From Thermoproteota archaeon (GTDB lineage: Archaea; Korarchaeota; JAOZGF01; JAOZFZ01), in NCBI GenBank assembly GCA_027492035.1, contig JAOZFT010000022.1:1-20412 (forward strand): a stretch of 20,412 nt of DNA. Reading direction: 5' to 3'. The first letter of the stretch is position 1. Each line of letters begins with the position of its first letter. A program made the position numbers and the translations under genes. A model generated the notes under the pieces. The model saw only the letters and a list, made by a program, of their open reading frames with translations, was not told where the DNA came from and ran no database searches. Positions 1,861 through 20,068 of this stretch are shown in pieces.

Positions 1861-1863
1861 AGA

Positions 1864-2631: not shown

Positions 2632-2659
2632 GAGTAAATGGGGAAGAGGAAAACAAGAA

Positions 2660-3850: not shown

Positions 3851-3866
3851 AATAAACCACTCATAT

Positions 3867-3884
3867 CCTTCAAAAATTTGAAGG
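3867..3884. promoter_or_regulatory. Perfect 8-bp inverted repeat CCTTCAAA-AA-TTTGAAGG, candidate operator upstream of rbr
   Basis: Lies between a TATA-like TTTTTAAC (minus strand, about 3900-3893) and the rbr ATG at 3850. Confidence 0.4.
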
Positions 3885-3979
3885 GTCATCCAGTTAAAAA
3901 GTATTTATTTTTTACGGTTTAAACCCAAACTTAAAAACCAACAAAAAATCTTTTTTAAGCATTTTTAGAAGGTAGTGAG

Positions 3980-7967: not shown

Positions 7968-8390
7968 TTATAGTTGAGAGATGCTTACTATGTGTTTTCT
8001 ATATTTCTCCCCTAAGGTTTGAGTTAATTTTTGATCTGCAGTGTAGAGCACGGTTTTCAGTTTAAGCGCTAGGGCTAAGTATGATGCGTCATATATAGTT
8101 ACATTTCTTTCTACTCCTATTTCAACAGTTTTTTCAGCCAGATCCCCTATTAAAGGGTAAAATAATATCCCGTAGCTTGAAAGTGACGCGGCGGCTGCTT
8201 TAAGTTCTTCTAAACTAAATAATTTACTATATTTAAGGGCGTTAAGGACTTCAAATGGAAGCAGCTCAGGTGCAACTATGTTTATTTCCCTGTTTACATG
8301 CATATCCCTCAGTTTGTTGGCTTTATCTGAATATTTCTCTTTAATAAACCACTTCGCAATTACACTGGCGTCACTGACCACGTTCTCCAT
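7968..8390 (-). CDS. vapC: VapC PIN-domain toxin (type II TA)
   Basis: VVSDASVIAKWF...E, PELLPFEVLNAL, TIYDASYLALA and LYTADQKL contain the conserved PIN acidic residues. Overlaps the upstream antitoxin gene by 20 nt. Confidence 0.93.
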   Translation of the reverse strand: MENVVSDASVIAKWFIKEKYSDKANKLRDMHVNREINIVAPELLPFEVLNALKYSKLFSLEELKAAAASLSSYGILFYPLIGDLAEKTVEIGVERNVTIYDASYLALALKLKTVLYTADQKLTQTLGEKYRKHIVSISQL

Positions 8391-8616
8391 AGCGACTTTC
8401 CCTCCAGTGTCTTATTAAGTCAGTGCTGTTCCACCCTTTAGGGGCTGTTTTCCTAATTTTTTCGTTGAGTAACACTGCTTTGGCGAGGTTTCTCCCTTTC
8501 TCTTCCTCTATTACCCTTAAAACAGCGCTTCTAATGACCTCGCTCCAATTTATATGTTTAAGTTTCTCCATCTGCCTTTTAACATCTTCCTCTACTCTAA
8601 CACTTATTACAGGCAT
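8371..8616 (-). CDS. vapB: VapB-type ribbon-helix-helix antitoxin
   Basis: MPVISVRVEEDVKRQMEKLKHINWSEVIRSAV is an RHH pattern; C-terminal STDLIRHWRESR is typical of archaeal VapB; directly upstream of and overlapping vapC. Confidence 0.88.
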   Translation of the reverse strand: MPVISVRVEEDVKRQMEKLKHINWSEVIRSAVLRVIEEEKGRNLAKAVLLNEKIRKTAPKGWNSTDLIRHWRESRYGERGQ

Positions 8617-8627
8617 ACATGTTACAC

Positions 8628-8654
8628 ATAAATATATTTATTAAAAATTTTCGC
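8628..8654 (-). promoter_or_regulatory. BRE-TATA promoter of vapBC (probably leaderless) with an overlapping 14-bp palindrome
   Basis: Minus strand reads GCGAAAA-TTTTTAAT, ending 24 nt before the vapB ATG. Perfect palindrome ATAAATATATTTAT at 8628-8641 overlaps the TATA end. Confidence 0.6.
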
Positions 8655-8825
8655 CTTAAAATTTAAAAACATGCCTCTATTCTTAGCCGAGATAACCATT
8701 TAAAGCGGTTACGTTATTAAGTAGATGCTTCAGTAGATTCTTTTAAGCAATCTTTTATTGGTAAGCAAGTAGGTATGTCTTCACTTCACTTTTAAATCAG
8801 TAGTTGTTCTATTATACCTTTAAAG

Positions 8826-9042
8826 GTGGTGTTGTGGAGGAAGATAGCTGATATAGGTGAGTTCATGTATTCCTGCGGGTTAGAAATCCTTCACCTTGGT
8901 GGTTTGGAAAGGGCAGGTAAGATGGTGGGAATGTGGGGTGTGGGGGAAGGTAAACACGTCTTAGATGTTGGAGTGAGGAGGGGGGGTCACAGCTTGTTAT
9001 CTAGCTGAGAAGTATGGATATAAGATGTTTAGAGTAGGCTAG
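8826..9042 (+). pseudogene. Class I SAM-dependent methyltransferase pseudogene (N-terminal remnant)
   Basis: EILHLGGLE...GKHVLDVG continues, after a frameshift in or near the G7 run at 8980-8986, as GVTACYLAEKYGYK. Together this fits the family pattern LHPGG...VLDVGxGxGxTACYLAxxYG. Stop at 9040-9042; the rest of the domain is not recognisable. Confidence 0.72.
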
Positions 9043-9374
9043 AGGGATTTACGGTGAAACCCATTGGTCTATAACTGTTGAAGATCTAATAAATCTGACT
9101 GAATTCTTTTTAACCCCTTTAAACTCCATTAATATTTTTCCAAGTTTTAAAGGGTATAAGTAGCTATGTTGAAAGTTGCCCATGCAAAAACTATTAATCA
9201 AAGGTCTCTACTCCTTAAATTATAGCAACATCTATTTTCTAAGTTTCTCTTCAAACATTTCTAGGTAAAGTATTATTTCCTTTCCTTTTCCGCCTAAAAA
9301 GGCTTGTGCTTTCTTTTTAAGTGTTTTTCCTAAACTTTCTTACTTTAACCTTTTTCAAAAGGTTTTTAATGAAG

Positions 9375-10703
9375 TTAAATGTATTCAAAAATGCTTATTT
9401 CTTTTTCAGAGTCTATTTCCATAATTTTTTTGAAAAGAGTTTTACTTCTTTCTTCACCTATGTTTCCTTCAACTAAACTAATGAACTTTTCCTTTAATTC
9501 ATTGATTGTTAAAGGGTTTTCAGGGTCTCCTTTAGGTTTATCAACAAATTCTTCCAAAACTTCCCCGCTTTCTTTCTCAATTCTTAGAAGTGAGGGCTGT
9601 TTAGGGAGTAGGTTGTTGAATTCTTCCCTAACTTTAACAATTACCTTGTCCCTAAGTTTAAGGACTTCTTTGTCTTTTAAAGAACTCCTTAAATCCTTAA
9701 CTGTAAATGACCCGTTCACAAGCGCCGCAGCTACACAGTGACTTAAACTGAACTTTGCTTCCTCTATTGTTACCGGTTTCCTTAACCCAGCCACTTCCAC
9801 CGCCTCCCTATATGTCTCTACTTCCACCTTCCTTACTTTATTCACTTCCACTTTTTTGTGCATTTTCAAAGCTGCTTCAATGGAGGAGTGGATGTGGCGG
9901 CATGAAGGGTAAGGCTTAATTGAAACATTTAAAATTTCCTTCGCCTCCAAGTTTTCAATTATTTTTTTGGGGGAAGCATTGGGAGCTAAACCAGCCATGA
10001 ATCCTTGGCTACCTTCAAAAATGGTTAATGGGGAAGCTATTCTTTTTAAACTCAACATTGACGCTAATGCCCCAAGCCATGAAGCATGTGCAGGTATTAA
10101 AGGCTTTAAAGATGAACCTGATTTAATGTACTCCCATAAACCTGAAGTTAAAACCCCTGCTATGCCAATGGCTTCAGCTGTTTCCTTTGAGTCGAGTTTT
10201 TGAATTTTTGAAGCTGAAGCAGCTGCTCCAAAAGATCCACAGGTGCCTGTTGTGTGCCATATTTTGTAATGTTCCTGTCCAGCTGCAACTGCAACTCTTA
10301 TGCATACTTCATACCCTGCAACAATTGCTTCTATGAGTTCTTTCCCGGATTTTTTCTGTTCTTCAGCTAAAGCTAAAGCTGCTGAGTTTACGACCGTGCC
10401 TGGATGTATTATTCCGCCCATGTGTACATCATCAAGTTCTGTTGAGTGAGATGAGAAAGAGTTTAGGAATGCTGCAGAAAGAGGGTTTGTTTTATTCCAT
10501 AAACCAATTAAGGTTGATTCTCCTTCTCCGCTAAATTTTTCAGTTAAGAATTTCATGTTTTTGTTTCTGGAACCATAAACTGCACATCCAATCCAGTCAA
10601 GTAAAAGTTCTTTAGTTTTCTTTTTTACTTGTGAAGATAAATTCTTGTAAGTGATGGATTCCACATGTTCCCCCAAAACTTCAGAAATCGTCTTCATTTC
10701 CAT
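9375..10703 (-). CDS. MmgE/PrpD family protein
   Basis: LLLDWIGCAVYG, AAFLNSFSSHSTELDDVH...HPG, AIVAGYEV, WHTTGTCG, KPYPSCRHIHS, EAKFSL and PKGDPENPLT..EL.EKF. Overlaps the citE-like gene end. Confidence 0.92.
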   Translation of the reverse strand: MEMKTISEVLGEHVESITYKNLSSQVKKKTKELLLDWIGCAVYGSRNKNMKFLTEKFSGEGESTLIGLWNKTNPLSAAFLNSFSSHSTELDDVHMGGIIHPGTVVNSAALALAEEQKKSGKELIEAIVAGYEVCIRVAVAAGQEHYKIWHTTGTCGSFGAAASASKIQKLDSKETAEAIGIAGVLTSGLWEYIKSGSSLKPLIPAHASWLGALASMLSLKRIASPLTIFEGSQGFMAGLAPNASPKKIIENLEAKEILNVSIKPYPSCRHIHSSIEAALKMHKKVEVNKVRKVEVETYREAVEVAGLRKPVTIEEAKFSLSHCVAAALVNGSFTVKDLRSSLKDKEVLKLRDKVIVKVREEFNNLLPKQPSLLRIEKESGEVLEEFVDKPKGDPENPLTINELKEKFISLVEGNIGEERSKTLFKKIMEIDSEKEISIFEYI

Positions 10704-11592
10704 TCTTCTCTTTCTCTTTAATTTGTTTCATTAACTCAATTACTTCTTTAGCTTGTTTATAATGTACTTCATCTATCATTCTACCTGCGTAAGTTGTTGC
10801 CCCTAACCCTCTAGACACTGCTTCCTCATAGGCTTTCACTATCCCTTTTGCTTCCTCGATTTCTTGTTTTGTTGGAGTGAAGACTTCATTTATTATTTTT
10901 ACATGCGAAGGGTGAATGGCGAATTTTCCTTTAAACCCTAATTTGGAAGCTATTTCGGATTCTTTCTTAACTCCCTCTTTATCAATTATTAACCCTAGAA
11001 AAGGAGAGTCAATAGCTAATTGGTTGTTGGCTCTTGCAGTGACTGAAATAGTTGATCTGGCATGTAAAAGCTCATATTGGTTACTGGATAACTTCACGTA
11101 ACTTTTTCCCATATCTCTCAAAAAATCAGCCGCTCCGAAAGAAATAGCTGTTACTCTTTCACTTGAGAAAGATATTTCTCTTAAATTAATTATTCCTTTT
11201 GCACTTTCAATTAAAGGGATTAGAAACACTTTCTTGTTTATTCCTCTCTTCTTTTCCAGTTTTTCAAGAACTTTAACTGTTTCTTTAACTTCTTCTTTTG
11301 ACTCTGTTTTAGGCAAAACTATTCCGTTAAGTCCTTTCTGGACAACAAACTCCAAGTCTTTCTGAAGTAAACCTGTTCCTGCACTGTTAACCCTTACAAT
11401 AATGTTTTGTTTCATTTTTTTGTTTTCCACCTCCTCCAAAAAATCTTTAATGAACCACCTAGCTGTTTCTTTTTCATCAATAGGTACTGAATCCTCTAAA
11501 TCAAGAACTACAGCGTCAGCTTCTTCTTTCATTGATTTTTTCATCATTCTCCAACTGTTAGCTGGAACGAAAAGAAGGGATCTGAGAATCAC
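10681..11592 (-). CDS. citE: CitE/HpcH-HpaI family CoA-ester lyase (citryl-/malyl-/citramalyl-CoA lyase-like)
   Basis: LRSLLFVPAN, ADAVVLDLEDSV, VRVN, LPK, LIESAKG, FGAADF, GFKGKFAIHPSH and GRMID. GTGA overlap with the upstream alpha-subunit stop. Exact substrate unknown. Confidence 0.9.
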   Translation of the reverse strand: MILRSLLFVPANSWRMMKKSMKEEADAVVLDLEDSVPIDEKETARWFIKDFLEEVENKKMKQNIIVRVNSAGTGLLQKDLEFVVQKGLNGIVLPKTESKEEVKETVKVLEKLEKKRGINKKVFLIPLIESAKGIINLREISFSSERVTAISFGAADFLRDMGKSYVKLSSNQYELLHARSTISVTARANNQLAIDSPFLGLIIDKEGVKKESEIASKLGFKGKFAIHPSHVKIINEVFTPTKQEIEEAKGIVKAYEEAVSRGLGATTYAGRMIDEVHYKQAKEVIELMKQIKEKEKNGNEDDF

Positions 11593-12491
11593 TTATTTCC
11601 ACCTAATACTTCAAGGAGGGTTGAAGGTATTTCTTTAGGTTTGTTGACAATTCTTACACCTGCCTCCTCCAAAGCCTCTATTTTGCTTTTAGCTGACCCT
11701 TTCCCACGTGTAACAATGGCACTTGCATGTGAAAACCTAACTCCACCAGGTAAAAATTTACCTGCTACATAAGCTACAACAGGTTTTTTGATGCCTTTCT
11801 TCTTAATTATTTCAGCTGCTTCTTCCTCTTGAACCCCACCTATTTCACCGAACAAAGCTACGGCTTTTGTTTCATTGTCTTTTTCAAACATTTCCAGAAG
11901 TTCAGCTTCAACTGTTCCAAGGACAGGTTCTGCACCTACATGTATAGCTGTTGAAACACCAAGTCCTGCTTTGCTTATGCTCCAAGAAATAGTTGTTGTT
12001 TGGCCTCCGCTTCTTGAAATAACCCCTATTTCTCCTGGTTTGAAGGCTTCTCTAGCTAATTCAATGGATCCCCCTATCCATCCAAGAACAGCTTTACATG
12101 GACTTATAACCCCGAATGAACCAGGTCCAATAATTTTCACTCCCATTCTTTTTGCTTTCGCAAGTATGTAGAGAACGTCATGTACGGGAACGTTTTCTGT
12201 CGGGATAAGTAACTCCTTAACTTTGTTCATTATGGCTTCAAGAGCAGCTTCCTTGACGTTTGAAGGAGGGACAAGAGTCACTGCTGCATCAACTTCTCCA
12301 TGTTTCTCAACAACTTCCTCTACACTGTTGTAAACAGGAACCCCCCAAACTTTCATTCCTCCTTTCCCAGGAGTTACGCCTGCAATAACTTTTGAACCAT
12401 ACTCAAGCATGTACCTGGTTGCAAATTCACCTGTTCTACCTGTTATTCCTTGAACAATTATTTTTGTTTCTTCATTTACAAGAATAGCCAC
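11589..12491 (-). CDS. sucD: Succinyl-CoA synthetase alpha-like subunit (divergent ADP-forming acid-CoA ligase)
   Basis: GTG start with AGGAGGAG RBS. IIVQGITGRTG, AGVTPGKGG, IIGPGSFG, SRSGG, GEIGG..EE and phospho-His loop RFSHASAI. Confidence 0.88.
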   Translation of the reverse strand: MAILVNEETKIIVQGITGRTGEFATRYMLEYGSKVIAGVTPGKGGMKVWGVPVYNSVEEVVEKHGEVDAAVTLVPPSNVKEAALEAIMNKVKELLIPTENVPVHDVLYILAKAKRMGVKIIGPGSFGVISPCKAVLGWIGGSIELAREAFKPGEIGVISRSGGQTTTISWSISKAGLGVSTAIHVGAEPVLGTVEAELLEMFEKDNETKAVALFGEIGGVQEEEAAEIIKKKGIKKPVVAYVAGKFLPGGVRFSHASAIVTRGKGSAKSKIEALEEAGVRIVNKPKEIPSTLLEVLGGNK

Positions 12492-12503
12492 TTTTCTCCT
12501 CCT

Positions 12504-12764
12504 TCACAACGGAACATTTATTTTGATTGCTTCTCCACCGCTCCATTTACAATGTATTTCACAGGCTAAACATTCATTGCAGAGTTTACTTGCTTTTTCA
12601 GGAGCAACAGCTAAGGCAGGTTTTGAATTAAATATTTTAAGGACGTTTCTGCCGTAAAGCCTGTCGGCTTTTACACATGCAAATTTACAGTTTGGAGCTA
12701 TGCATTTACTGTAATCAATAATTATTTCACATGTTCTTGTTTTGAAAACTAAAGAATTAGACAA
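12504..12764 (-). CDS. Small ferredoxin-like Fe-S protein
   Basis: TTG start with GAGGAGG RBS, overlapping the beta-subunit stop. IIIDYSKC-x4-C-x3-C-x3-D and CNECLACEIHC motifs. Confidence 0.75.
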   Translation of the reverse strand: MSNSLVFKTRTCEIIIDYSKCIAPNCKFACVKADRLYGRNVLKIFNSKPALAVAPEKASKLCNECLACEIHCKWSGGEAIKINVPL

Positions 12765-14004
12765 ACTTGTTCCTCCTCTCTCTTAAATATTCATCAATCA
12801 TTTTTTTCAATTTGTCCACTATAAAGTCTGTTTCGTAAATGTAATCCCTACCATAAAGTTTAAGTTTGATAGGGAGTTTTTGAAGCCCTTTCCTTATTAT
12901 TTCATGTGTTTCTTTTTCTTTGTTGCCAGCTATCAATATTAAAACAGGAAATCCTGGTTTATTCTTTAATGATTCATTTAACGCCTTCACTATTGCGTGA
13001 GCATGGTGCCATTGTTCTTGGCTTGCAATCACTGAACCTATTAAGGCGTAACCAATTATTCCTGGTTGGGAAAGAATTGTTTTAATAACTCTATAGATTT
13101 TAGATGCCGGAGGGTCTCCGCTTGTATCTGCGTAATTAGCTATTTTTAACCCTTTCTCTAAAAGAGCATCTGTTGCAAGCATCGCTCCTCCTCCACCTAT
13201 TCCGTGGAAGCCGACACATCCCTTTGTGTCCTTTGTTAACTGTATAAAGTACCCTGTCCCTCTTTTATCTATTTGTTCAAACCTCCATATTTTTTTCTCC
13301 AGCTCCGTTAACCCTCTGCCTATTTCTCTTCCAACCCCTATTTCTTTATGTTTAAAAAGGGAGTTGTCATCTATTGTTACTCTACAGTCTGCAGCTATAA
13401 CTTTTCTGTTAACTGTTTGAACTAAAGGGTTAATTTCTACAGTGGTTGCGTCATATTCCTTCGACAACTTGCAAATTTTTTCTGCGTAATCAATTATTTC
13501 CTTAACAGGTAAACCTTTGATTTTTGAAATTTTCCCTTCAAATTCTTCCTTTTTTAATCCATCCACAGGATCTATCACGGTCTTAATTATTCTTGAAGGT
13601 TCTTTCTCAGCTATTTCCTCTATGTCAACCCCTCCTTCGTCGTTGAAAATAAGGACTTGGCTTCTTACTTTAAAGGAGTCGTCAATCGTTACCCCTAAAT
13701 AAAACTCTCTTTTAATTTCAAGTTTCTTTTCAACCAAAATTTTACTTACTTTAAACCCTTTAACAGGGTTGCTGAAAATTTTTTCAGCTTCTTTTTCAAC
13801 TTTTAACTTGTTTTCAGCAAATTTTATGCCTCCAGCTTTAAATCTTCCTGTAACATGAACCTGAGCCTTTAAAACAACAGGAAAACCTATTTTGGAAGCT
13901 GATTCAACAGCTTCTTCAGGAGTTTCAGCCACTAAACCTACAGGAGTTTCTATGCCATATTTTGCAAGTAAATTTTTCCCTTGATATTCGAAAAGTTTAG
14001 CCAA
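12757..14004 (-). CDS. sucC: Succinyl-CoA synthetase beta-like ATP-grasp subunit (divergent, citryl-CoA synthetase/ACL-like C-domain)
   Basis: MAKLFEYQGKNLL, PVVLKAQV..GRFKAGGIK, EFYLG, GGVDIEE, EINPL, AADCRVTIDDNSLF. The substrate domain GIGGGGAML...ANYADTSGDPP is non-canonical. Confidence 0.87.
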   Translation of the reverse strand: MAKLFEYQGKNLLAKYGIETPVGLVAETPEEAVESASKIGFPVVLKAQVHVTGRFKAGGIKFAENKLKVEKEAEKIFSNPVKGFKVSKILVEKKLEIKREFYLGVTIDDSFKVRSQVLIFNDEGGVDIEEIAEKEPSRIIKTVIDPVDGLKKEEFEGKISKIKGLPVKEIIDYAEKICKLSKEYDATTVEINPLVQTVNRKVIAADCRVTIDDNSLFKHKEIGVGREIGRGLTELEKKIWRFEQIDKRGTGYFIQLTKDTKGCVGFHGIGGGGAMLATDALLEKGLKIANYADTSGDPPASKIYRVIKTILSQPGIIGYALIGSVIASQEQWHHAHAIVKALNESLKNKPGFPVLILIAGNKEKETHEIIRKGLQKLPIKLKLYGRDYIYETDFIVDKLKKMIDEYLRERRNKFV

Positions 14005-14031
14005 TTCTTCTTCTCCCCTGTATAAGAATTT

Positions 14032-15612
14032 TTAAGGGTTCTTTTTTAAAGATTCATAAACTAAAGACCCTATATCCTCAACTTTAATTTTCTCCTCAAC
14101 CCCCATAGTTTTCACAGCGTCACTTAACATTATTAAACAAAAGGGACAAGCTGTAGCCACCACGTCAACCCCTAACTTAATTGCTTCCTTTATTCTTTCC
14201 ATGGACGGTCTTTCACCGTGAGGAACAGATTCTTCAGACCAAAGCCTTCCTCCTCCTCCGCCGCAACAGAAACTGTTTTCTCTGTTCCTTTCCATTTCAA
14301 CAAATTCGGCTCCAGGTAAAGACTTAATTATTTTTCTAGGTTCCTCAAACACTTTATTTATTTTACCTAAGTAACATGGGTCATGGTAAGTAACTTTTAA
14401 CTTGTTTTCTTGTTGAGGAATTAACTCTCCTTTATCGATAAGTTCAGCTAAAACTTCAGTGTAATGTTTAACCTTTAACCCTAATCTTTTGTAGGGTTCC
14501 TTTTTCTTTAATGTGTCGTAGCAGTGGGGGGAAATAGTGACAACTTTTCTTAATCCACTGTTCTTTATTAAGTTGAAGTTGTGTTCAGCCAAGTACTCGT
14601 AAAGGCCTTTTTCACCTAGTTTCGAAGCAGAGTCTCCGCAACACCACTCCATGTTTTCGAAAGATGCAAGAGCCAATCCTCCTGCTCTAAGGGATTTAAC
14701 AATTTTTTCAGCTGCTTCTTTACATCTTTGGTCGTAACTTGCTGTGCAGCATGTGAAAAATAAATGGTTTTCTTCAGGGTTTAAAAACATGTCCTTTATA
14801 GGTTTTACACCTAACTCCATCAGGAACTTATTTCTTTCAGTTGAAGAGAAACCCCATGGGTTATAATTATTTCTTAAACTAAGTAACACTTTTATGATTG
14901 ATCTGGGAAGTTTCCCTTCCTCCGTTAAAAGTTTACGTATCTCTACAATTGACTCAGCTATTTCCACTTCTTTTGGGCAAGTTAAGTTGCAGGAACTGCA
15001 CTGTGTGCAAAGCCATGCATTCTCTTGGCAAATCACCAACCTCTCTTTTAAACCTTGATCTCTTGAATCAGCCATGAACCTGTAAAGGGTTGAGAGATGC
15101 GTAGGTCCTAAAAAGTTTTCATCTGGGGATGTAGGACATGCAGCAAAACATATTCCGCATTTAATGCAAAGTGAGTAACTCCAAATTCTTGAATGTTCAT
15201 TTACTGTTTGAGGAATTTCTTTTTCAAAAGTTGCTGGCTTCTTCCTTAACAAGAAAGGTTTCAAATTTTTGTATTTATTCATGAAAAAGGAGAAATCAAC
15301 AACTAAGTCCTTAATAAGTGGAAAGTTTGGTAAGGGTTCAATGATTATCTCTTTCTTCATCACATCTGCAACTTGGGTGCAGCATGCAAGCACTGGTTTA
15401 CCATTTACTTGAACTGCGCAACTTCCACAAATACCCATTCTGCAAGAAAACCTGTAAGAAAGGGTCCCATCCACTTTATCCTTTATGTAATTTAAAGCAT
15501 CTAAAACTGTCATACCCTTTTGAAGAGGAACATAGTAAATTAATTCCTTAAAAGTTTCCTTTTCAGGGTTAAATCTTTTTATTTTAAACCTAACAGTTTC
15601 CCTTTTCCCCAT
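14032..15612 (-). CDS. SdhB/FrdB Fe-S subunit fused to two CCG (HdrD/GlpC-type) domains, TfrB-like architecture
   Basis: Probable start ATG15612 (MGKRETVRFKIKRFNPE). [2Fe-2S] SCRMGICGSC...LAC; CIKCGICFAACP; CTQCSSCNLTCP; CCG domains WCCG, YHDPCYLG, FCCGGGGG and ATACPFC. Confidence 0.9.
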   Translation of the reverse strand: MGKRETVRFKIKRFNPEKETFKELIYYVPLQKGMTVLDALNYIKDKVDGTLSYRFSCRMGICGSCAVQVNGKPVLACCTQVADVMKKEIIIEPLPNFPLIKDLVVDFSFFMNKYKNLKPFLLRKKPATFEKEIPQTVNEHSRIWSYSLCIKCGICFAACPTSPDENFLGPTHLSTLYRFMADSRDQGLKERLVICQENAWLCTQCSSCNLTCPKEVEIAESIVEIRKLLTEEGKLPRSIIKVLLSLRNNYNPWGFSSTERNKFLMELGVKPIKDMFLNPEENHLFFTCCTASYDQRCKEAAEKIVKSLRAGGLALASFENMEWCCGDSASKLGEKGLYEYLAEHNFNLIKNSGLRKVVTISPHCYDTLKKKEPYKRLGLKVKHYTEVLAELIDKGELIPQQENKLKVTYHDPCYLGKINKVFEEPRKIIKSLPGAEFVEMERNRENSFCCGGGGGRLWSEESVPHGERPSMERIKEAIKLGVDVVATACPFCLIMLSDAVKTMGVEEKIKVEDIGSLVYESLKKNP

Positions 15613-15623
15613 TTTAGGTTCCT

Positions 15624-17327
15624 TCAATACTTTCTCGCAACAGGTTTCCATTTAGTGATTGTGACAGGTAAGAAATTGAACTTCAACCCTTCTTTTGAAC
15701 AATAAATTAAAGTGTGTACAAGCCATTCTTTGTCGTTTCTTTCAGGGTAATCTACCCTTACATGAGCCCCTCTGGATTCTTTCCTTAAAAGTGCACTTGT
15801 TAATATAGTTTCAGCTATGTCAAGCATGAAATCAAGCTCTAAGGCAGCTATAAGTCCTGTGTTGAAAATTTTTCCTTTATCTTCCACTGCAACATGTTTA
15901 AACCTTTCCTTTAACTCTCTTATCTTCTTTAACCCTTTCTTTAACCCTTCTTCGTTTCTGAAAAGCCAACAGTTTTCATTCATTGTTTCCCTCATTTCTT
16001 TCCTGATCTCAGGTACCTTTTCAAACCCCTCCTTACCAAGAATTCCGTCGAAAACTCTTTCCTCTTCACTTTTTACCTTGTCCAAAGGAGCTTCGCTGAA
16101 GTCATGTTTTAAAGCGTATTTGGCAGCTTCAACACCTGCAACTTCCCCAAAAACTAAGCATTCAGCTGTGGAGTTTGTTCCCAACCGGTTTGCTCCATGT
16201 AAACTTAAACATGAACATTCACCTGCGGCGTATAAACCTCTTACTTCTGTTTCTGTTTTTACGTTAACATGTATACCTCCCATTGAGTAATGAGCTGTTG
16301 GTTTAACAGGTATTAAGTCGTTTGCAGGGTTTAAACCAGCCAGTTTCCTGCAAATCTCTTTTATGAAAGGAAGTTTTTCCTTTATTTTCTCTTCCCCTAA
16401 ATGTCTGAGGTCAAGAGCTATGTATTTCCCGAAAGAACTGCTAAAGCCTCTTTTCTCCATTATCTCTGTCCATTCAGCTCTTGCTACAACGTCCCTAGGT
16501 GCAAGTTCCATCATTTCCGGTGCATATTTCCCCATAAACCTCTCTCCTTTGTTGTTTAACAGGAAGCCTCCTTCCGACCTCGCACCTTCAGTTATTAATA
16601 CACCGTCAGCTGGGACAAGTCCTGTTGGGTGAAACTGAGTCATTTCCATGTCTTTCAAAGGAACTCCTGCCCGATACGCGATGGCTACTCCGTCGCCTGT
16701 TGCTGTATGTGAATGACTTGTGAAACTGTAAACCCTCATGAACCCGCCAGTAGCTAAAATAACTGCTTTAGCTTTAAACAGATGCATTTCTCCAGTTTTT
16801 ATGTTGATAACAGTTAAACCTTTAATTTTTCCCTCTTCAGTTAAAAGAGAAGTTGCGAACCATTCATTATAGAAAGTAATATTTTCAAGGGCTGAAGCTT
16901 TTCCATATAAAGTGTGCATTTCATGTAAACCTGTGTAGTCAGCTGCGAAACAGCCTCTAGAGAAACTATGTCCACCAAATCTTTTCTGAGCTATTAACCC
17001 CTCCTCATCCCTGCTCCAAGGCATACCTAAACAATCAAGGAAAATAACTTGCTTAGGTGCTTTTTTAACGAAGAACTCAACAACATCCTGATCTGCAAGA
17101 AAGTCAGAACCCTTCACTGTATCCCATGCATGTAAATCAAATGAGTCCCCCCTTCTCAAAACAGCAGCAGTGCCTCCTTGTGCACAAACAGAATGTGAAC
17201 GGACAGGAAAAGTTTTACTTATAACTGCAATGTTTATTTTCTTATTGAAATTTGAAGCTGCAATTGCAGCCCTTAAACCAGCTATGCCTGCGCCTACAAT
17301 AGCGATATCGCAGCTAATTTTCTCCAA
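15624..17327 (-). CDS. sdhA: Succinate dehydrogenase/fumarate reductase flavoprotein subunit
   Basis: TTG start. [16 protein letters not shown] (covalent-FAD His), [50 protein letters not shown] and C-terminal ARKY. Confidence 0.95.
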
Positions 17328-17359
17328 AGTTACGGCACCATCAATCCTTGCCTAAGAAT

Positions 17360-17378
17360 TTAATTAAAAAATTTCCTT
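17360..17378 (-). promoter_or_regulatory. Candidate BRE/TATA for the sdhA-led operon
   Basis: Minus strand AAGGAAATTTTTTAATTAA about 35-50 nt upstream of the sdhA TTG, followed by a GGTG RBS. Confidence 0.35.
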
Positions 17379-17511
17379 TACCACCTTTTCATTTAAATAT
17401 TTCTTTGTTTAAAAGTGAAATCTTGCAAATTTTCCAATTTACCTTTGCTACCCTTCTTCACAAGTGTCAAAAAACTTAAATTGAGTCAATAAACTTCACC
17501 TAAATAAATAA

Positions 17512-17575
17512 GGAAAAGAAGAAAAGGGGATTCTTTTCCGTAAAAACCCTTTTTCTTAACTTGTTTACGGGAAAA
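17512..17575 (-). terminator. Overlapping inverted repeats with a U-rich tract just downstream of pgk; candidate terminator
   Basis: GGAAAAGAA (17512-17520) pairs perfectly with TTCTTTTCC (17531-17539), with two further alternative stems. On the minus strand this is followed by TTATTTATTT. Confidence 0.35.
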
Positions 17576-17590
17576 TGTTTCTCTACCCCG

Positions 17591-19006: not shown

Positions 19007-20068
19007 ATGGTTAACAACTTCGCTTCTCTCTTTAAAGAAGTTATTCTCAAAAATAAATGTGTTTTCTGTGGGGCATGTATAGCTTCCTGCCCAGTTGAAG
19101 CCATAGAGGTAGTTAAAAACAAACCTATGCTTAAGGGGGTCTGTTACAACTGTGAAGTATGTTACTACCAATGTGCAAGAACAGGTATTTACGATAAACA
19201 ATTCATTGAAGAGAAGAAATTTGGAAGAAGAAGGGAGAGAGATGAGGTTTTCGGGGTTTACTTAAAGGTTTTCAAAGCCAAAGCTACAGATAAAAACATA
19301 CTTAATGTATGCCAAAATGGTGGAGCAGTGACTTCTTTACTCAAATACATGTTTGATGAAGGTTTAATTGACGCTGCAGTAGGTGTTAAAAGAGACGAAA
19401 ACTGGGAAGCTTACCCCTTTGTCGTACTTAATGAAAAAGATTTATTAGAGGTTGCAGGGTCAAAATACATGGTTGTACCTACATTAACAGCTGTAAGAGA
19501 AGCTGTGGATTACTTGTTCAAGAAATCAATTGCCGTTGTTGGCTTACCTTGCCAAATAGAAGCTGTAACAAACTATAAATACTCTTTGAAGCATCCCTTA
19601 AAATTAGGGAACAAAATAAAGTTAACAATAGGGGTTTTCTGTTTCCATGAATTCAAACATGCAGAAATGCTTAATTTCTTTAAAGAGAAAAACATAGAGT
19701 TGAAGGAAGTAACAAAAATGGATATTGAAAAGGGAAGATTCAAAGTTTATAAAGGAGACGAGTTAATTCTGAACATAAAAATAAGTGAATTAGATCCCTT
19801 CACAAGGGAAGCTTGCAAGATATGTAAAGACTTCACAGCTGAACTTGCAGACATATCTGTTGGAAACGTTGATTCACCTTCAGACTGGTCAACAATAATA
19901 ATTAGAAGTGAATATGGCCTAAAAATATTTGAAGACGCTGTAAATAGGGGATACTTAACAGCTGAACCCCTAGAAAAACTAGAAACAGTTAAATTGTTGT
20001 CGAAAGTTAAAAGAAAGAATGCATTAAAACATTTAAAGGAAACAGCTGAAGTGAAGGCGAGGAAATAA
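19007..20068 (+). CDS. Coenzyme F420 hydrogenase/dehydrogenase beta subunit family (FrhB/FpoF-like) with N-terminal 2x[4Fe-4S] domain
   Basis: CVFCGACIASCP, CYNCEVCYYQC, QNGGAVTSLL, AGSKY, VVGLPCQ, IGVFC and CKICKDFTAELADISVG. Confidence 0.92.
   Translation: MVNNFASLFKEVILKNKCVFCGACIASCPVEAIEVVKNKPMLKGVCYNCEVCYYQCARTGIYDKQFIEEKKFGRRRERDEVFGVYLKVFKAKATDKNILNVCQNGGAVTSLLKYMFDEGLIDAAVGVKRDENWEAYPFVVLNEKDLLEVAGSKYMVVPTLTAVREAVDYLFKKSIAVVGLPCQIEAVTNYKYSLKHPLKLGNKIKLTIGVFCFHEFKHAEMLNFFKEKNIELKEVTKMDIEKGRFKVYKGDELILNIKISELDPFTREACKICKDFTAELADISVGNVDSPSDWSTIIIRSEYGLKIFEDAVNRGYLTAEPLEKLETVKLLSKVKRKNALKHLKETAEVKARK

What the first reader, a model, noticed from the sequence alone, without database searches (positions are those of the whole stretch)
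9375..17327. Seven-gene operon suggesting an undescribed carboxylic-acid oxidation, CoA-activation and C-C cleavage pathway
Seen: sdhA, sdhB-CCG, ligase beta, ferredoxin, ligase alpha, citE-like and prpD-like genes, all co-oriented with overlaps or gaps under 30 nt. No fumarase, MDH, citrate synthase, aconitase, CitD/CitF or SdhC/D gene is in the cluster. Known: SdhA-family enzymes desaturate succinate-like acids; MmgE/PrpD proteins are (de)hydratases, epimerases or decarboxylases of di/tricarboxylates; SCS-like ligases include malate thiokinase and citryl-CoA synthetase; stand-alone CitE proteins cleave malyl-, citramalyl- or citryl-CoA; bacterial itaconate clusters also pair CitE with an MmgE/PrpD gene. 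Inference: a linear route of desaturation, hydration/epimerisation, CoA ligation and retro-Claisen cleavage. Examples are methylsuccinate to citramalyl-CoA to pyruvate + acetyl-CoA, succinate to malyl-CoA to glyoxylate + acetyl-CoA, or two-step citrate cleavage. Run in reverse it could assimilate acetyl-CoA with substrate-level ATP formation.
Basis: partly seen in the sequence, partly recalled or inferred. Interest (0 to 1): 0.72.

Follow-up and report, generated by a model that had tools for sequence, protein, structure and literature searches.

The report
Ferredoxin-bearing CoA ligase–lyase operon
An archaeal operon joins a fumarate reductase to a widely conserved but undescribed gene module, a succinyl-CoA-synthetase-like enzyme with an extra iron-sulfur subunit plus a CoA-ester lyase, which probably makes or splits malyl-CoA with ATP at stake.

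Summary
The seven co-oriented genes are real and sit at the stated coordinates. They fall into two units.

- **Unit 1:** a TfrAB-type fumarate reductase, SdhA plus SdhB fused to two CCG domains.
- **Unit 2:** a module ligB–fdx–ligA–citE–prpD.

The core of the module is very strongly conserved. Of 57 related loci with enough sequence, 56 carry LigB–Fdx–LigA–CitE in the same order, in both archaea and bacteria. PrpD-like genes lie in 35 of 80 loci and SdhA-like genes in 16 of 80.

The ligase is not the housekeeping SucCD, because a canonical SucCD lies elsewhere in the genome. The 86-aa cysteine-rich protein is predicted to dock on the ligase β subunit, exactly on family-specific motifs (score 0.85, best control 0.00).

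CitE keeps all seven catalytic residues. At three specificity positions it resembles malyl-CoA lyases, not citrate lyase β or CLYBL.

Best reading, about 0.42: malate + ATP + CoA ⇌ malyl-CoA ⇌ glyoxylate + acetyl-CoA, tied to fumarase and TfrAB. The substrates are inferred, not shown. Citrate, C5-acid and isocitryl-CoA versions remain possible. My eight literature searches found no description of the module.

The parts
15624..17327 (-). tfrA/sdhA-like flavoprotein of fumarate reductase / succinate dehydrogenase (567 aa)
   Evidence: Pfam FAD_binding_2 (360 bits) and Succ_DH_flav_C (153 bits). NCBIfam NF004724 scores 862 bits, above its cut-off of 826. The TfrA model NF004900 scores 501 bits, below its cut-off of 718.
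14032..15651 (-). tfrB-like iron-sulfur subunit: SdhB part fused to two CCG (HdrD/GlcF-like) domains (539 aa; the true start may be the Met at residue 14)
   Evidence: Pfam Fer2_3, Fer4_8 and CCG x2. NF004898 (TfrB) scores 329 bits, below its cut-off of 385, but aligns residues 19-533 to positions 3-486 of 488.
12757..14004 (-). ligB: beta (ATP-grasp) subunit of an SCS-family ADP-forming acid-CoA ligase (415 aa)
   Evidence: Pfam ATP-grasp_2 (179 bits) and Citrate_bind (37.6 bits, above 26.8). SucC NF001913 scores 233, below 370; MtkA NF010647 scores 166, below 604. Family motifs are N/D-Y-A-D-T/S-S-G-D/N-P-P-A and Q-E-Q-W-H-H-A-H. 379 relatives were found in species-representative genomes.
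12504..12764 (-). fdx: small Cys-rich ferredoxin-like protein (86 aa), predicted third subunit of the ligase
   Evidence: No Pfam or NCBIfam hit. C21, C30, C68 and C72 are invariant and C65 is at least 90% conserved in 22 sequences. It lies between ligB and ligA in 57 of 57 loci. Predicted complex with LigB scores 0.85 against a best control of 0.00.
11589..12491 (-). ligA: alpha (CoA-binding, phosphohistidine) subunit of the ligase (300 aa)
   Evidence: Pfam CoA_binding, Succ_CoA_lig and Ligase_CoA. TIGR01019 scores 299, below its cut-off of 353. The loop F-S-H255-A-S has His in 65 of 65 family members. The best PDB match is archaeal SCS-alpha 2yv1 at 259 bits, against 193 bits for the CCS small subunit.
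10681..11592 (-). citE-like beta-hydroxyacyl-CoA lyase with an MCL-like pocket (303 aa)
   Evidence: Pfam HpcH_HpaI, 175 bits. The catalytic set D31, E33, D34, R67, E129, D156, D274 is kept (with PMC3832036 sections 9 and 13). Across the family each residue is kept in 60-61 of 61 sequences. A155, P197 and F224 are discussed in the report.
9375..10703 (-). MmgE/PrpD-family protein, nearer to IRG1/IDS-epimerase than to 2-methylcitrate dehydratase (442 aa)
   Evidence: Pfam MmgE_PrpD_N (207 bits) and MmgE_PrpD_C (134 bits). PrpD equivalog models score 49 bits or less against cut-offs of 458-950. PDB matches: B. subtilis IRG1 at 125 bits, IDS-epimerase at 95, CAD at 70. It is the only copy in the genome.
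17328..17590 (.). 263-nt A+T-rich spacer between the PGK gene and tfrA; likely promoter region of the operon (inference only)
   Evidence: Read directly from the sequence. It contains a TTTAAAT-type stretch and a GGTG about 10 nt before the TTG start. Not tested.

Best explanation
The seven genes form one operon made of two units.

**Unit 1 (tfrAB).** This is a soluble TfrAB-type fumarate reductase / succinate dehydrogenase. Its SdhB part is fused to CCG domains, and no membrane anchor is encoded here.

**Unit 2 (ligB-fdx-ligA-citE-prpD).** This is a widespread, undescribed module. LigB, LigA and the 86-aa Cys-rich protein form a three-subunit member of the succinyl-CoA-synthetase superfamily. 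The ATP-grasp beta subunit and the CoA-binding alpha subunit with its phosphohistidine (H255) do the chemistry. The ferredoxin-like subunit sits on the C-terminal, acid-binding domain of beta. CitE is a Mg-dependent Claisen / retro-Claisen lyase for the CoA ester that the ligase makes or consumes.

**Most likely chemistry.** Malate + ATP + CoA <-> (S)-malyl-CoA + ADP + Pi, then malyl-CoA <-> glyoxylate + acetyl-CoA. Propionyl-CoA / beta-methylmalyl-CoA may be a side reaction. In this strict-anaerobe setting the likely direction is glyoxylate + acetyl-CoA -> malate with one ATP gained, an 'ATP-conserving malate synthase'. This matches the malyl-CoA pathway known physiologically from glyoxylate/glycolate fermenters. 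Malate would then go to fumarate (FumAB on contig C33) and to succinate through TfrAB as an electron sink, or to pyruvate through malic enzyme (contig C9).

**What is shown.** Gene order, families, catalytic residues, conservation, a separate canonical SucCD, and the predicted Fdx-LigB contact.

**What is inferred.** The acid substrate, the direction, the Fe-S content and role of Fdx (redox control or structural), the electron partner of TfrB, and the role of the PrpD-like protein. The last may be a (de)hydratase or isomerase of a related substituted malate or tricarboxylate.
For: **Conservation.** Among 57 loci with at least 3.3 kb after LigB, Fdx is present in 57, LigA in 57 and CitE in 56, in the same order and on the same strand. 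The loci are listed and mapped.

**Distinct ligase.**
- It scores below the SucC, SucD and MtkA cut-offs.
- It is only 29-32% identical to annotated SucC/MtkA on plasmids; all 99 matching records are below 60%.
- A canonical SucCD lies elsewhere in the genome.
- H255 is invariant in 65 of 65 LigA sequences.

**Fdx as a subunit.**
- Complex prediction scored 0.85; the best of 3 controls scored 0.00. That mark was reached by 116 of 157 solved complexes and 2 of 215 mismatched pairs.
- The three runs agree in at least 95% of contacts, and the partner pLDDT is 90-91.
- The contacts fall on LigB 238-248, 299-309, 332-340 and 369-373. These include the family-specific PPASKxY helix and the WHHAH motif.
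- I know of no solved complex of this kind (recalled).

**CitE.**
- All seven catalytic and metal residues defined in PMC3832036 (sections 9 and 13 read) are present.
- The residue before the Mg-binding Asp is Ala in the window. Across the family it is G 37, V 16, L 4, A 3, I 1 of 61 and never Glu. MCLs have Ala there; E. coli CitE and CLYBL have Glu.
- 'D-S/T-P-F' has Pro in 53 of 61. MCLs have DGPF; E. coli CitE and CLYBL have D-x-V-Y.
- These comparisons come, with PMC3832036 section 14 (part 1).

**Contexts pointing to malate.**
- Class I fumarase genes sit next to the core in L017, L021, L022, L025, L043, L064, L067 and L090.
- In L103, CitE fragments are followed by FumA, FumB, TfrA and TfrB.
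- A malic enzyme gene follows CitE directly in L021.

**Contexts pointing to glyoxylate.**
- In eight Desulfobacterota loci the core lies with a GlcD-like oxidase, seven of them also with a GntR-FCD regulator. A representative oxidase (L079) scores 523 bits on TIGR00387, just under the cut-off of 568; a CCG protein is also there in five.
- In another set it lies beside an allantoinase/hydantoinase-like amidohydrolase.

**Own genome.** It has FumAB, a malic enzyme and two GlcD+CCG pairs. No malate synthase was found.

**Physiological precedent.** Glyoxylate metabolism via malyl-CoA in S. glycolicus and, via malyl-CoA, in Moorella sp. HUC22-1, whose cited paper is titled 'with ATP synthesis', is described in PMC8092247 (passages read).
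Against: - No substrate was tested, and the specificity argument rests on three alignment positions and few reference enzymes.
- The third MCL marker is not met. MCLs have Trp; the window has F224, and the family has M, L, Q, F, Y or N.
- LigB carries Pfam Citrate_bind and shares the motif G-(N/D)-P-P-A-x-K-x-Y-x3-K-x-I-L-S-x-P-G-I with H. thermophilus citryl-CoA synthetase, not with SCS.
- The highest NCBIfam score of CitE is to citrate lyase beta: 216 bits, against 101 for haloarchaeal malyl-CoA lyase.
- All known substrates of MmgE/PrpD proteins are tri- or tetracarboxylates (recalled), which suits citrate better than malate.
- In 41 relatives the module co-occurs with a citrate-synthase-family gene. 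13 of 14 module-positive genomes carry one, against 1 of 27 module-negative genomes. The malate reading does not explain this.
- No isocitrate lyase was found in any of the 41 genomes, so the glyoxylate source in this organism is only guessed (GlcD-like oxidases).
- The complex prediction is a model's confidence, not a measurement. My own alignments were used, so the calibration counts hold only roughly.
Confidence: 0.42

Rival explanations
1. Citrate version. LigB/Fdx/LigA is a citryl-CoA synthetase and CitE a citryl-CoA lyase. Together they act as a two-step ATP-citrate lyase or, in reverse, as an ATP-yielding citrate synthase. The PrpD-like protein interconverts citrate and cis-aconitate. 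TfrAB belongs to the reductive dicarboxylate branch fed by the oxaloacetate produced.
For: - Pfam Citrate_bind hits LigB, and LigB shares a motif with CCS. With the family profile, CCS is the second-best PDB match at 189 bits.
- The best NCBIfam score of CitE is citrate lyase beta, at 216 bits.
- The module co-occurs with the citrate-synthase family in 13 of 14 positive relatives. Long AcnA genes occur only in module-positive genomes, 7 of 7.
- PrpD-family enzymes act on tricarboxylates (recalled).
Against: - Of the eight CCS citrate-site residues listed in preprint 10.1101/2022.10.25.513756 (passages read), only G297 is kept. R363 falls in an insertion absent from this family.
- The CitE pocket differs from E. 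coli CitE at all three positions compared.
- The route would be redundant. Carriers also hold a citrate synthase or a citryl-CoA-lyase-like gene.
- This genome has no full-length aconitase, and family f4 has no aconitase-family gene at all. Citrate would therefore be a dead end unless it is imported.
- No MDH gene lies between CitE and FumAB in any locus where they are adjacent.
Confidence: 0.18
2. C5-acid version. The module handles citramalate, or itaconate or mesaconate after hydration: (S)-citramalate + ATP + CoA -> citramalyl-CoA -> pyruvate + acetyl-CoA. The PrpD-like protein (and FumAB-like mesaconases) would make citramalate, and the flavoprotein would act on methylsuccinate/mesaconate.
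For: - The best PDB match of CitE is human CLYBL, a citramalyl-CoA lyase, at 136 bits. The RipC model scores 178 bits.
- The PrpD-like protein is nearest to IRG1/CAD-type proteins.
- L017 holds a family III CoA-transferase, an HMGL-like gene, a MaoC-like gene and a B12 mutase next to the core.
Against: - CLYBL and MCL score equally, 136 against 133 bits.
- The window CitE has A155, P197 and F224 where CLYBL has Glu, Val and Gln.
- The flavoprotein passes the SdhA/FrdA subfamily cut-off.
- No itaconyl-/mesaconyl-CoA hydratase gene lies in the window.
- No methylaspartase was found in the genome.
Confidence: 0.1
3. Alpha-substituted ester version. The ligase activates isocitrate or 2-methylisocitrate, both 2-substituted succinates. 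CitE cleaves the ester to succinyl-CoA plus glyoxylate or pyruvate. This would replace isocitrate lyase / PrpB in a CoA-dependent glyoxylate- or methylcitrate-type cycle together with the CS/CCL-like gene, the PrpD-like protein, SucCD and TfrAB.
For: - ICL was found in 0 of 41 relatives, and PEP-mutase/PrpB in 0 of 41 above the cut-off. Module carriers nevertheless have CS-family genes (TIGR01800 '2-methylcitrate synthase/citrate synthase II', 530 bits), PrpD-like genes and, in 7 genomes, AcnA.
- Gly or Ala precedes the Mg-binding Asp in 40 of 61 CitE sequences. This leaves room at the acyl alpha-carbon (logic from PMC3832036 section 14).
- By sequence, LigA and LigB are closer to SCS than to CCS.
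- In L017 a SucCD-like pair directly follows CitE.
Against: - Isocitryl-CoA is not a known metabolite (recalled).
- Family f4 carries the module but no aconitase-family gene.
- Many loci hold the core alone.
- The idea needs several untested assumptions at once.
Confidence: 0.07
4. Ordinary reading. The ligase is just a second succinyl-CoA synthetase working with TfrAB in the reductive branch to 2-oxoglutarate. CitE, the PrpD-like gene and the small Cys protein are unrelated neighbours.
For: The best single PDB matches are SCS subunits. TfrAB plus SucCD is the known reductive branch in methanogens (recalled).
Against: - A canonical SucCD exists elsewhere in the genome.
- The CitE and Fdx linkage holds in 56-57 of 57 loci across two domains.
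- The acid-binding loops of LigB are remodelled and invariant within the family.
Confidence: 0.04

Closest known systems
Malate thiokinase MtkAB + malyl-CoA lyase Mcl (serine cycle of methylotrophs; Mcl also in the 3-hydroxypropionate bi-cycle and ethylmalonyl-CoA pathway)
   Same: An SCS-family two-subunit ligase encoded next to a CitE-superfamily lyase. CitE shares the seven catalytic residues and two of the three MCL pocket markers (Ala before the Mg-binding Asp, and Pro in D-x-P-F).
   Different: LigB is only 29-30% identical to annotated MtkA and scores 166 bits against the MtkA cut-off of 604. There is an extra ferredoxin-like subunit. The MCL Trp is replaced (F224). The hosts are anaerobic archaea and bacteria, and the likely direction is ATP-forming.
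Citryl-CoA synthetase CcsAB + citryl-CoA lyase Ccl (Hydrogenobacter thermophilus, PDB 6HXQ) and ATP-citrate lyase
   Same: A two-step acid activation and cleavage. LigB shares the Pfam Citrate_bind signal and the G-N/D-P-P-A-x-K-x-Y motif of the beta C-terminal domain with CCS.
   Different: The lyase here belongs to the CitE family, not the citrate-synthase family. Only 1 of 8 citrate-site residues is kept. A ferredoxin-like subunit is present. A separate CCL-like gene exists elsewhere in the genome.
Citrate lyase CitDEF
   Same: CitE homology: TIGR01588 scores 216 bits, and the catalytic residues are shared with E. coli CitE.
   Different: The score is below the equivalog cut-off of 443. No CitF was found in the genome and no CitD in the window. 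The pocket residues differ from those of E. coli CitE.
Thiol:fumarate reductase TfrAB of Methanothermobacter (name and biochemistry recalled)
   Same: Same two-gene architecture: an SdhA-like flavoprotein plus an SdhB fused to two CCG domains, with no membrane anchor.
   Different: Both subunits score below the TfrA/TfrB equivalog cut-offs. No McrA was found in this 93% complete genome, so CoM-SH/CoB-SH as the electron donor is doubtful.
Malyl-CoA pathway of glyoxylate/glycolate fermenters (Syntrophobotulus glycolicus, Moorella sp. HUC22-1)
   Same: The proposed chemistry: condensation of glyoxylate with acetyl-CoA to malyl-CoA, ATP formation on release of malate, then malic enzyme (PMC8092247 passages; the enzyme details are recalled).
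   Different: I could not check whether those organisms carry this module.
Itaconate catabolic clusters (Ict/Ich/Ccl-RipC) and IRG1/CAD
   Same: A CitE-family lyase occurs with an MmgE/PrpD-family gene. RipC scores 178 bits, and IRG1 is the best PDB match of the PrpD-like protein.
   Different: There is no CoA-transferase or hydratase gene in the operon. The RipC score is below its cut-off of 375. CAD activity was not tested.

Membership tests
Succinyl-CoA synthetase superfamily (ADP-forming acid-CoA ligases) | ATP-grasp beta N-domain, CoA-binding alpha subunit, catalytic phosphohistidine loop | tested here: met
   PF08442 scores 179 bits and PF02629 scores 84 bits. H255 is present in 65 of 65 family LigA sequences.
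Succinyl-CoA synthetase proper (SucCD) | Scores above the NCBIfam cut-offs for SucC and SucD | tested here: not met
   233 against 370 (NF001913), 213 against 376 (TIGR01016), 299 against 353 (TIGR01019), 293 against 336 (NF004230). The genome's other pair passes: 467 and 422 bits.
Malate-CoA ligase MtkAB | Score above the NF010647 cut-off; close similarity to annotated MtkA | tested here: not met
   166 against 604. Identity to plasmid-borne MtkA is 29-30%. This lowers 'is an Mtk', not 'works like one'.
Citryl-CoA synthetase (CcsA) | The eight citrate-site residues of PDB 6HXQ chain B (F270, G296, G297, A327, N328, N329, T330, R363), as listed in preprint 10.1101/2022.10.25.513756 | tested here: not met
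   The aligned window residues are I269, S295, G296, I326, A327, S328 and Q329, and R363 lies in an insertion. Only G297 is kept.
CitE-like superfamily lyase | Asp/Glu/Asp water-binding triad, catalytic Arg, Mg-binding Glu and Asp, C-terminal lid Asp (MCLR D42, E44, D45, R76, E141, D168, D299) | tested here: met
   The window has D31, E33, D34, R67, E129, D156 and D274 (PMC3832036 sections 9 and 13). Each is kept in 60-61 of 61 family members.
Citrate lyase beta subunit (CitE proper) | TIGR01588 cut-off; CitD and CitF partners | tested here: not met
   216 against 443. CitF was not found in the genome. No CitD or CitF is in the window.
Malyl-CoA lyase (MCL) | Ala before the Mg-binding Asp; conserved Pro and Trp lining the glyoxylate site (PMC3832036 section 14) | tested here: inconclusive
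   A155 is met and P197 is met. Trp is not met: the window has F224, and the family has M 20, L 14, Q 14, F 6, Y 6, N 1 of 61. NF041626 scores 101 against 500.
MmgE/PrpD superfamily | Both Pfam domains above their cut-offs | tested here: met
   207 and 134 bits, each against a cut-off of 32.1.
2-methylcitrate dehydratase PrpD | NCBIfam equivalog cut-offs | tested here: not met
   49 against 950, 31 against 575 and 23 against 458. No PrpD structure matched at E<1e-5.
Thiol:fumarate reductase TfrAB | SdhA-like subunit plus SdhB-CCG fusion; equivalog cut-offs; CoM/CoB-using host | tested here: inconclusive
   The architecture is met. The scores are 501 against 718 and 329 against 385, so not met. 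McrA was not found in the 93% complete genome. The thiol partner cannot be tested here.
2x[4Fe-4S] ferredoxin | Two CxxCxxCxxxC(P) motifs; Pfam Fer4 hit | tested here: inconclusive
   There is no Pfam hit. One canonical motif is present (C62-C72) and one variant whose last ligand is Asp34. Only C21, C30, C68 and C72 are invariant. The Atlas neighbours are Fer4 proteins, but at scores of 0.90 or less. The cluster content needs spectroscopy.

The most novel reading that the evidence does not exclude
The ligase-lyase pair works on alpha-substituted esters. Isocitrate or 2-methylisocitrate, both 2-substituted succinates, is activated to its CoA ester and cleaved to succinyl-CoA plus glyoxylate or pyruvate. 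The same MCL-like lyase and ligase then turn glyoxylate + acetyl-CoA into malate with ATP regained.

Together with the co-occurring citrate-synthase/CCL-like gene, the PrpD-like protein, SucCD, TfrAB and fumarase, this would be an ATP-neutral, CoA-dependent glyoxylate / methylcitrate-type cycle. It would run in anaerobes that lack isocitrate lyase, PrpB and malate synthase. An Fe-S subunit would gate the ligase by redox state.
Probability: 0.07. Interest if true: 0.9.

Novelty: new variant of a known kind. Interest (0 to 1): 0.68.

Why it matters
A ligB–fdx–ligA–citE module is present in at least 379 species-representative genomes. They span Thermoproteota, Asgard, Archaeoglobi, Dehalococcoidia, Desulfobacterota and other anaerobes. 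Sources name the ligase only 'ATP-grasp domain protein', 'acetate--CoA ligase family protein' or 'succinyl-CoA synthetase beta'. Metabolic reconstructions therefore probably misread it as SucCD, 'citrate lyase' or evidence for a reverse TCA cycle.

If the best reading holds, it supplies the missing genes for an ATP-yielding way of assimilating glyoxylate: substrate-level phosphorylation from malyl-CoA in energy-starved anaerobes. It would also add the first SCS-superfamily enzyme with an iron-sulfur subunit.

Even if the substrate turns out to be different, the module is a clean, testable target. It has four small soluble proteins and a short list of candidate acids.

Tried and rejected
- **'PrpD replaces aconitase'.** Rejected. 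Genus g4 genomes carry the PrpD-like gene next to CitE and also a long AcnA.
- **'The module replaces citrate synthase'** (an anticorrelation was expected). Rejected. They co-occur in 13 of 14 module-positive genomes.
- **Glyoxylate from isocitrate lyase.** ICL was found in 0 of 41 relatives, and PEP-mutase/PrpB in 0 of 41 above the cut-off.
- **Glutamate by way of methylaspartate and mesaconate.** No methylaspartase was found in the genome.
- **Plasmid collection.** 99 records matched LigB, all at 31.6% identity or less. All are SucC/MtkA types, none a member of this family.
- **ESM Atlas.** It gave only automatic names and no functional lead.
- **Sigma-70 promoter and terminator scan.** Not applicable to an archaeon. 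It found fewer promoter-like sites than the shuffles did.
- **Sequencing runs.** None was listed, and no RNA holder was listed.
- **Sakai et al. 2008 (PMC2258637).** Not held. Whether Moorella or S. glycolicus carry this module therefore stays open.
- **PMC9723716.** Read as an example of a published reconstruction of non-methanogenic TACK archaea (passages). It lists KOR, SucCD, TfrA, FumAB and MaeA. The words 'citrate' and 'glyoxylate' occur 0 times in it. I do not claim that it is the same lineage.
- **Literature searches.** Searches found no description of the module. Supplements were not opened.
- **Not done.** No tree of LigB against SCS, Mtk, CCS and ACL was built, because I had no tool-given CCS/ACL sequences. 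Placement rests on HMM scores and identities only.

Full report
**What is in the window.**
The 20.4-kb window is a whole contig (C4) of a 1.87-Mb, 42-contig archaeal genome with about 37% G+C. The genome is estimated 93% complete. Seven minus-strand ORFs run from 17327 down to 9375. Their junctions are a 28-nt overlap, a 27-nt gap, an 8-nt overlap, a 12-nt gap, a 4-nt overlap and a 23-nt overlap.

Upstream lies a 263-nt A+T-rich spacer after an archaeal phosphoglycerate kinase gene. Downstream there are about 750 nt without a long ORF on that strand before a VapBC pair.

Pfam and NCBIfam give the following:
- An SdhA/FrdA flavoprotein (NF004724, 862 bits against a cut-off of 826).
- An SdhB fused to two CCG domains. 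It aligns over the full length of TfrB but scores below the cut-off (329 against 385).
- An SCS-type beta subunit whose C-terminal half hits Pfam Citrate_bind instead of Ligase_CoA.
- An 86-aa protein with no family hit.
- An SCS-type alpha subunit.
- A CitE/HpcH-family protein.
- An MmgE/PrpD protein.

The only correction is that 'ferredoxin' rests on Cys motifs rather than on a family hit.

**The ligase is a distinct, widespread family.**
- Both subunits fall below the SucC/SucD cut-offs, and the beta subunit falls far below the malate-CoA ligase cut-off.
- The genome has a canonical SucCD on contig C9, scoring 467 and 422 bits, both above their cut-offs.
- The word-indexed protein search scored 8000 candidates, and 7748 had E ≤ 0.001. 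The best 120 are 50-75% identical, leaving out the window's own protein. Their source names are only 'ATP-grasp domain-containing protein', 'acetate--CoA ligase family protein' or 'succinyl-CoA synthetase beta'. The named sources include Ca. Methanomethylicia, Nezhaarchaeota, Hodarchaeota, Deltaproteobacteria and Dehalococcoidia.
- Two family-specific peptide patterns (QEQWHH[AG]H and [ND]YAD[TS]SG[DN]P) found 379 relatives in one-genome-per-species contigs. I examined the best 80: 27 archaeal and 53 bacterial.
- Against PDB sequences, the family profile is closest to Thermus SCS-beta (267 bits), then H. thermophilus citryl-CoA synthetase (189), other SCS (185-162) and ACL-beta (161). LigA is closest to archaeal SCS-alpha (259), with the CCS small subunit at 193.
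- On plasmids, only SucC/MtkA-type genes match, at 31.6% identity or less.

**Synteny.**
I ran tblastn with the window's proteins on the 80 loci and clustered all 1125 ORFs.
- Of the 57 loci with at least 3.3 kb after LigB, 57 have Fdx, 57 have LigA and 56 have CitE, in the same order and on the same strand. L065 lacks CitE.
- PrpD-like genes lie in 35 of 80 loci, 33 of them close by. They sit before or after the core, sometimes in 2-3 copies.
- SdhA-like genes lie in 16 of 80 loci. Six are at least 50% identical to the window's.

Recurrent settings (Pfam and NCBIfam of representatives):
- The core plus PrpD alone, in Thermoproteota.
- The core, then PrpD, DUF1847, an unknown 290-aa protein and SdhA, with SdhB detected after it in L033 and L039, in Archaeoglobi.
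- FumA-FumB with or without SdhAB/TfrAB next to the core, in eight loci.
- A Desulfobacterota set with an allantoinase/hydantoinase-like amidohydrolase, a GntR-UTRA regulator, two PrpD paralogues, a flavocytochrome-c-type FAD protein and a Liv-type ABC transporter.
- A second Desulfobacterota set of eight loci. Most hold a GntR-FCD regulator of the LldR/PdhR/GlcC type; TRAP transporter genes lie in four. Then come the core, a formyltransferase, a small thiamine-BP-like protein and a methyltransferase. All eight hold a GlcD-like oxidase (the L079 representative scores 523 bits on TIGR00387, against a cut-off of 568, and has a GlcE-like tail); five also hold a CCG protein.
- L021 has a malic enzyme gene directly after CitE.
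- L017 places the core among a glycyl-radical enzyme with its activase, a family III CoA-transferase, an HMGL-like gene, FumAB, a SucCD-like pair, a B12 mutase, two acetyl-CoA hydrolase/transferase genes and a MaoC-like gene.

**The small Cys protein.**
In an alignment of 22 sequences, C21, C30, C68 and C72 are invariant, as are E64 and E69. C65 is at least 90% conserved. One motif is canonical (CxxCxxCxxxC) and the other is variable. In the window its last ligand position is Asp34.

I submitted LigB, LigA and this protein, each as an alignment, to the complex predictor.
- The score was 0.85 (runs 0.84, 0.85, 0.85) and the best of three controls was 0.00.
- That mark was reached by 116 of 157 solved complexes and 2 of 215 mismatched pairs.
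- The runs agree in at least 95% of contacts, and the partner pLDDT is 90-91.
- The calibration holds only roughly, because my own alignments and three chains were used.

All confident contacts are with LigB residues 238-248, 299-309, 332-340 and 369-373. These cover a family-specific insertion, the PPASKxY helix and the WHHAH motif. The partner residues on the small protein are 9-12, 37, 63-70, 74 and 82-86. The sequence features that define this ligase family thus coincide with the predicted docking surface. That explains why the small gene is never lost. I know of no solved SCS/ACL-type complex with such a subunit (recalled), so the pass is unlikely to come from memory. It remains a prediction.

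**Substrate clues from the ligase.**
A preprint (10.1101/2022.10.25.513756, passages read) lists the citrate site of H. thermophilus CCS as F270, G296, G297, A327, N328, N329, T330 and R363. In the profile alignment to 6hxq_B, the window has I269, S295, G296, I326, A327, S328 and Q329. R363 falls in an insertion that the family lacks. Only one of the eight is kept.

The family does share with CCS, and not with SCS, the stretch G-(N/D)-P-P-A-x-K-x-Y-x3-K-x-I-L-S-x-P-G-I. Part of that stretch is the predicted Fdx interface.

The acid-binding loops are nearly invariant within the family. S295 and G296 are each kept in 76 of 77 sequences, A327 in 73, Q329 in 75, E330 in 73 and W332 in 75. The phosphohistidine loop reads F-S-H-A-S, with His in 65 of 65. 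The acid is therefore probably neither succinate nor citrate bound in the known ways.

**Substrate clues from CitE.**
Zarzycki & Kerfeld 2013 (PMC3832036; sections 9, 13 and 14 part 1 read) define the catalytic set for R. sphaeroides MCL as D42, E44, D45, R76, E141, D168 and D299. In the phmmer alignment to 4l9y_A (SEQRES offset 21), the window has D31, E33, D34, R67, E129, D156 and D274. Across 61 family members these are kept in 60-61 of 61. The lid residue is Asp, the lyase type, and not Glu, the thioesterase type.

The same paper names three specificity markers: an Ala before the Mg-binding Asp that leaves room for propionyl-CoA, and a Pro and a Trp that crowd the methyl group of pyruvate. 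I compared these positions using the printed alignments to CLYBL and two MCLs and an alignment with E. coli CitE taken from NC_000913.3.

| Position | Window | MCLs | E. coli CitE | CLYBL |
|---|---|---|---|---|
| Before the Mg-binding Asp | G-A-A-D | A-D | A-E-D | G-E-D |
| Pro site | D-S-P-F | D-G-P-F | D-T-V-Y | D-L-V-Y |
| Trp site | G-K-F-A-I-H-P | G-K-W | G-K-S | G-K-Q |

In the family, the first position is G 37, V 16, L 4, A 3, I 1 of 61 and never Glu. The second is P in 53 and V in 8. The third is M 20, L 14, Q 14, F 6, Y 6, N 1. The pocket is MCL-like at two of the three positions and unlike the two ketone-accepting references at all three.

This is an inference from few references. 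NCBIfam scores point the other way: citrate lyase beta scores 216 bits, RipC 178 and haloarchaeal MCL 101, all below their cut-offs.

**Genome and relatives.**
The genome contents found are:
- One CitE and one PrpD-family gene, both in the window.
- Class I fumarase FumA and FumB on C33.
- A malic enzyme on C9 that is 60% identical to the one beside CitE in L021.
- Two GlcD-like plus CCG pairs.
- Two Iso_dh genes.
- Only a LeuC/HacA-sized aconitase-family gene.
- A 272-aa citryl-CoA-lyase-like gene (NF004869, 262 bits against a cut-off of 212) next to a family III CoA-transferase.

Not found were McrA, malate synthase, CitF and methylaspartase. The genome is 93% complete, so these absences are provisional.

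In 41 genomes (this one plus 40 relatives):
- The CitE query hits 14.
- The citrate-synthase family also hits 14, of which 13 are the same genomes. The other module-negative genome with a hit is 1 of 27.
- In genus g4 the hit is a full-length gene of the '2-methylcitrate synthase/citrate synthase II' subfamily (530 bits against a cut-off of 421). In this genome's family and in family f4 it is a short CCL-like form.
- Long AcnA occurs in 7 genomes, all module-positive.
- PrpD-family genes occur in 13 of the 14 module-positive genomes. In 11 of these they are on the same contig as CitE.
- ICL occurs in 0 of 41, and PEP-mutase/PrpB in 0 of 41 above the cut-off.
- High-scoring SdhA/TfrA-like genes occur in most relatives, including module-negative ones. 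In g4 they lie on other contigs.

These genomes are kin, so the counts reflect at least three lineages rather than 14 independent events.

**Reading.**
The data establish a conserved four-gene core, usually with a PrpD-like gene. It encodes an SCS-superfamily ligase with an extra Cys-rich subunit and a catalytically intact CitE-type lyase. In this lineage it is transcriptionally joined to tfrAB.

The chemistry common to all CitE enzymes is the reversible cleavage of a beta-hydroxyacyl-CoA into a 2-oxoacid and an acyl-CoA. The ligase supplies the ATP-coupled link to the free acid.

I favour malate/malyl-CoA/glyoxylate at 0.42 for four reasons:
- The lyase pocket is MCL-like.
- Fumarase genes, and in one locus a malic enzyme gene, sit next to the core with no MDH between.
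- Two bacterial settings place the core beside enzymes that plausibly make glyoxylate: a glycolate-oxidase-like enzyme and an allantoinase-like enzyme.
- Anaerobes are known to ferment glyoxylate via malyl-CoA, and the cited Moorella paper is titled 'with ATP synthesis' (PMC8092247 passages).

Against this reading stand the CCS-like motif and Citrate_bind signal, the tricarboxylate habit of PrpD-family enzymes (recalled), and the unexplained co-occurrence with citrate-synthase-family genes. I therefore keep three alternatives open:
- Citrate, at 0.18.
- C5 acids, at 0.10.
- A bolder idea at 0.07. The pair would cleave isocitryl- or 2-methylisocitryl-CoA to succinyl-CoA, replacing the ICL/PrpB that all 41 relatives lack.

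The reading of the ligase as an ordinary second SucCD is very unlikely (0.04).

**Comparison and novelty.**
The module works like MtkAB-Mcl or CcsAB-Ccl, an SCS-type ligase plus a lyase. It is not a member of the Mtk, SucCD, CcsA, CitE-proper or PrpD-proper equivalogs, because each cut-off or residue test fails (see the membership table).

What is new is the ferredoxin-like subunit, the separate ligase clade, the pairing of such a ligase with a CitE-family lyase across two domains, and the recurrent PrpD partner. My eight full-text searches found no description of it. Supplements were not opened, and subscription journals are mostly not held.

I rate it a new variant of a known kind, with interest 0.68. 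The main weakness is that no substrate, Fe-S content or expression could be tested here.

Noticed in passing
G000 contig C24, locus L011:4839-6955 (minus strand): A 272-aa citryl-CoA-lyase-like gene (NF004869, 262 bits against a cut-off of 212) lies next to a family III CoA-transferase. The transferase scores 425 bits on the succinate-glutarate model and 329 bits on the mesaconate CoA-transferase model, both below their cut-offs. Short CCL-like genes occur in all four module-positive genomes of families f1 and f4. In f4 they lie beside a DMT-type transporter. Their function and their link to the module are unexplained.
   Followed up: partly
window 7968-8616 (minus strand): A VapB-like antitoxin (NF050799, 44 bits, below the cut-off of 60) overlaps a PIN-domain VapC-like toxin. 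This is an ordinary type II toxin-antitoxin pair just downstream of the operon.
   Followed up: no
window 8617-9374: About 750 nt lie between the PrpD stop and the VapB start without a long ORF on the operon strand. Only a 60-aa plus-strand ORF is present. The stretch was not searched for RNA genes.
   Followed up: no
window 19007-20410 (plus strand): An FrhB/FpoF-like F420-dependent oxidoreductase beta subunit with an N-terminal 2x[4Fe-4S] domain (NF006807, 247 bits against a cut-off of 269). It is followed by an ORF with no family hit that runs off the contig. It could be an electron partner for the neighbouring redox enzymes. Not examined.
   Followed up: no
window 1-3235 (plus strand): An SMC/Rad50-like ATPase, open at the 5' end, is followed by two ORFs of 255 and 219 aa with no Pfam or NCBIfam hit. 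An Lhr-type helicase (3980-6853) and a rubrerythrin (3266-3889) lie on the other strand.
   Followed up: no
L017:236-21254 (MAG labelled Dehalococcoides sp. JdFR-54): The core sits in a dense organic-acid cluster: a glycyl-radical enzyme with its activase, a family III CoA-transferase, an HMGL-like gene, FumAB, a cupin, a SucCD-like pair, a B12-dependent mutase, two acetyl-CoA hydrolase/transferase genes and a MaoC-like dehydratase. It may be an anaerobic C4/C5-dicarboxylate or fumarate-addition pathway.
   Followed up: partly
L028, L033, L039, L055 (Archaeoglobi); also L025, L052, L064: A DUF1847 protein recurs immediately before the SdhA/TfrA-like gene. In Archaeoglobi an unnamed ~290-aa protein (my cluster c29, no Pfam or NCBIfam hit) recurs there too. 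Small cupin genes follow PrpD in L028 and L033 and precede LigB in L017. All are of unknown role.
   Followed up: no
It is followed by FumA, FumB, TfrA (585 bits) and a TfrB that passes its equivalog cut-off (507 against 385). This is another CitE-fumarase-Tfr row in a different archaeal family.
   Followed up: partly
LigB residue C207 (window about 13384-13386): A Cys replaces the Ala of SCS in the A-A-D-C-R motif in 68 of 77 family members. It lies outside the predicted Fdx interface. A possible redox or catalytic role was not examined.
   Followed up: no
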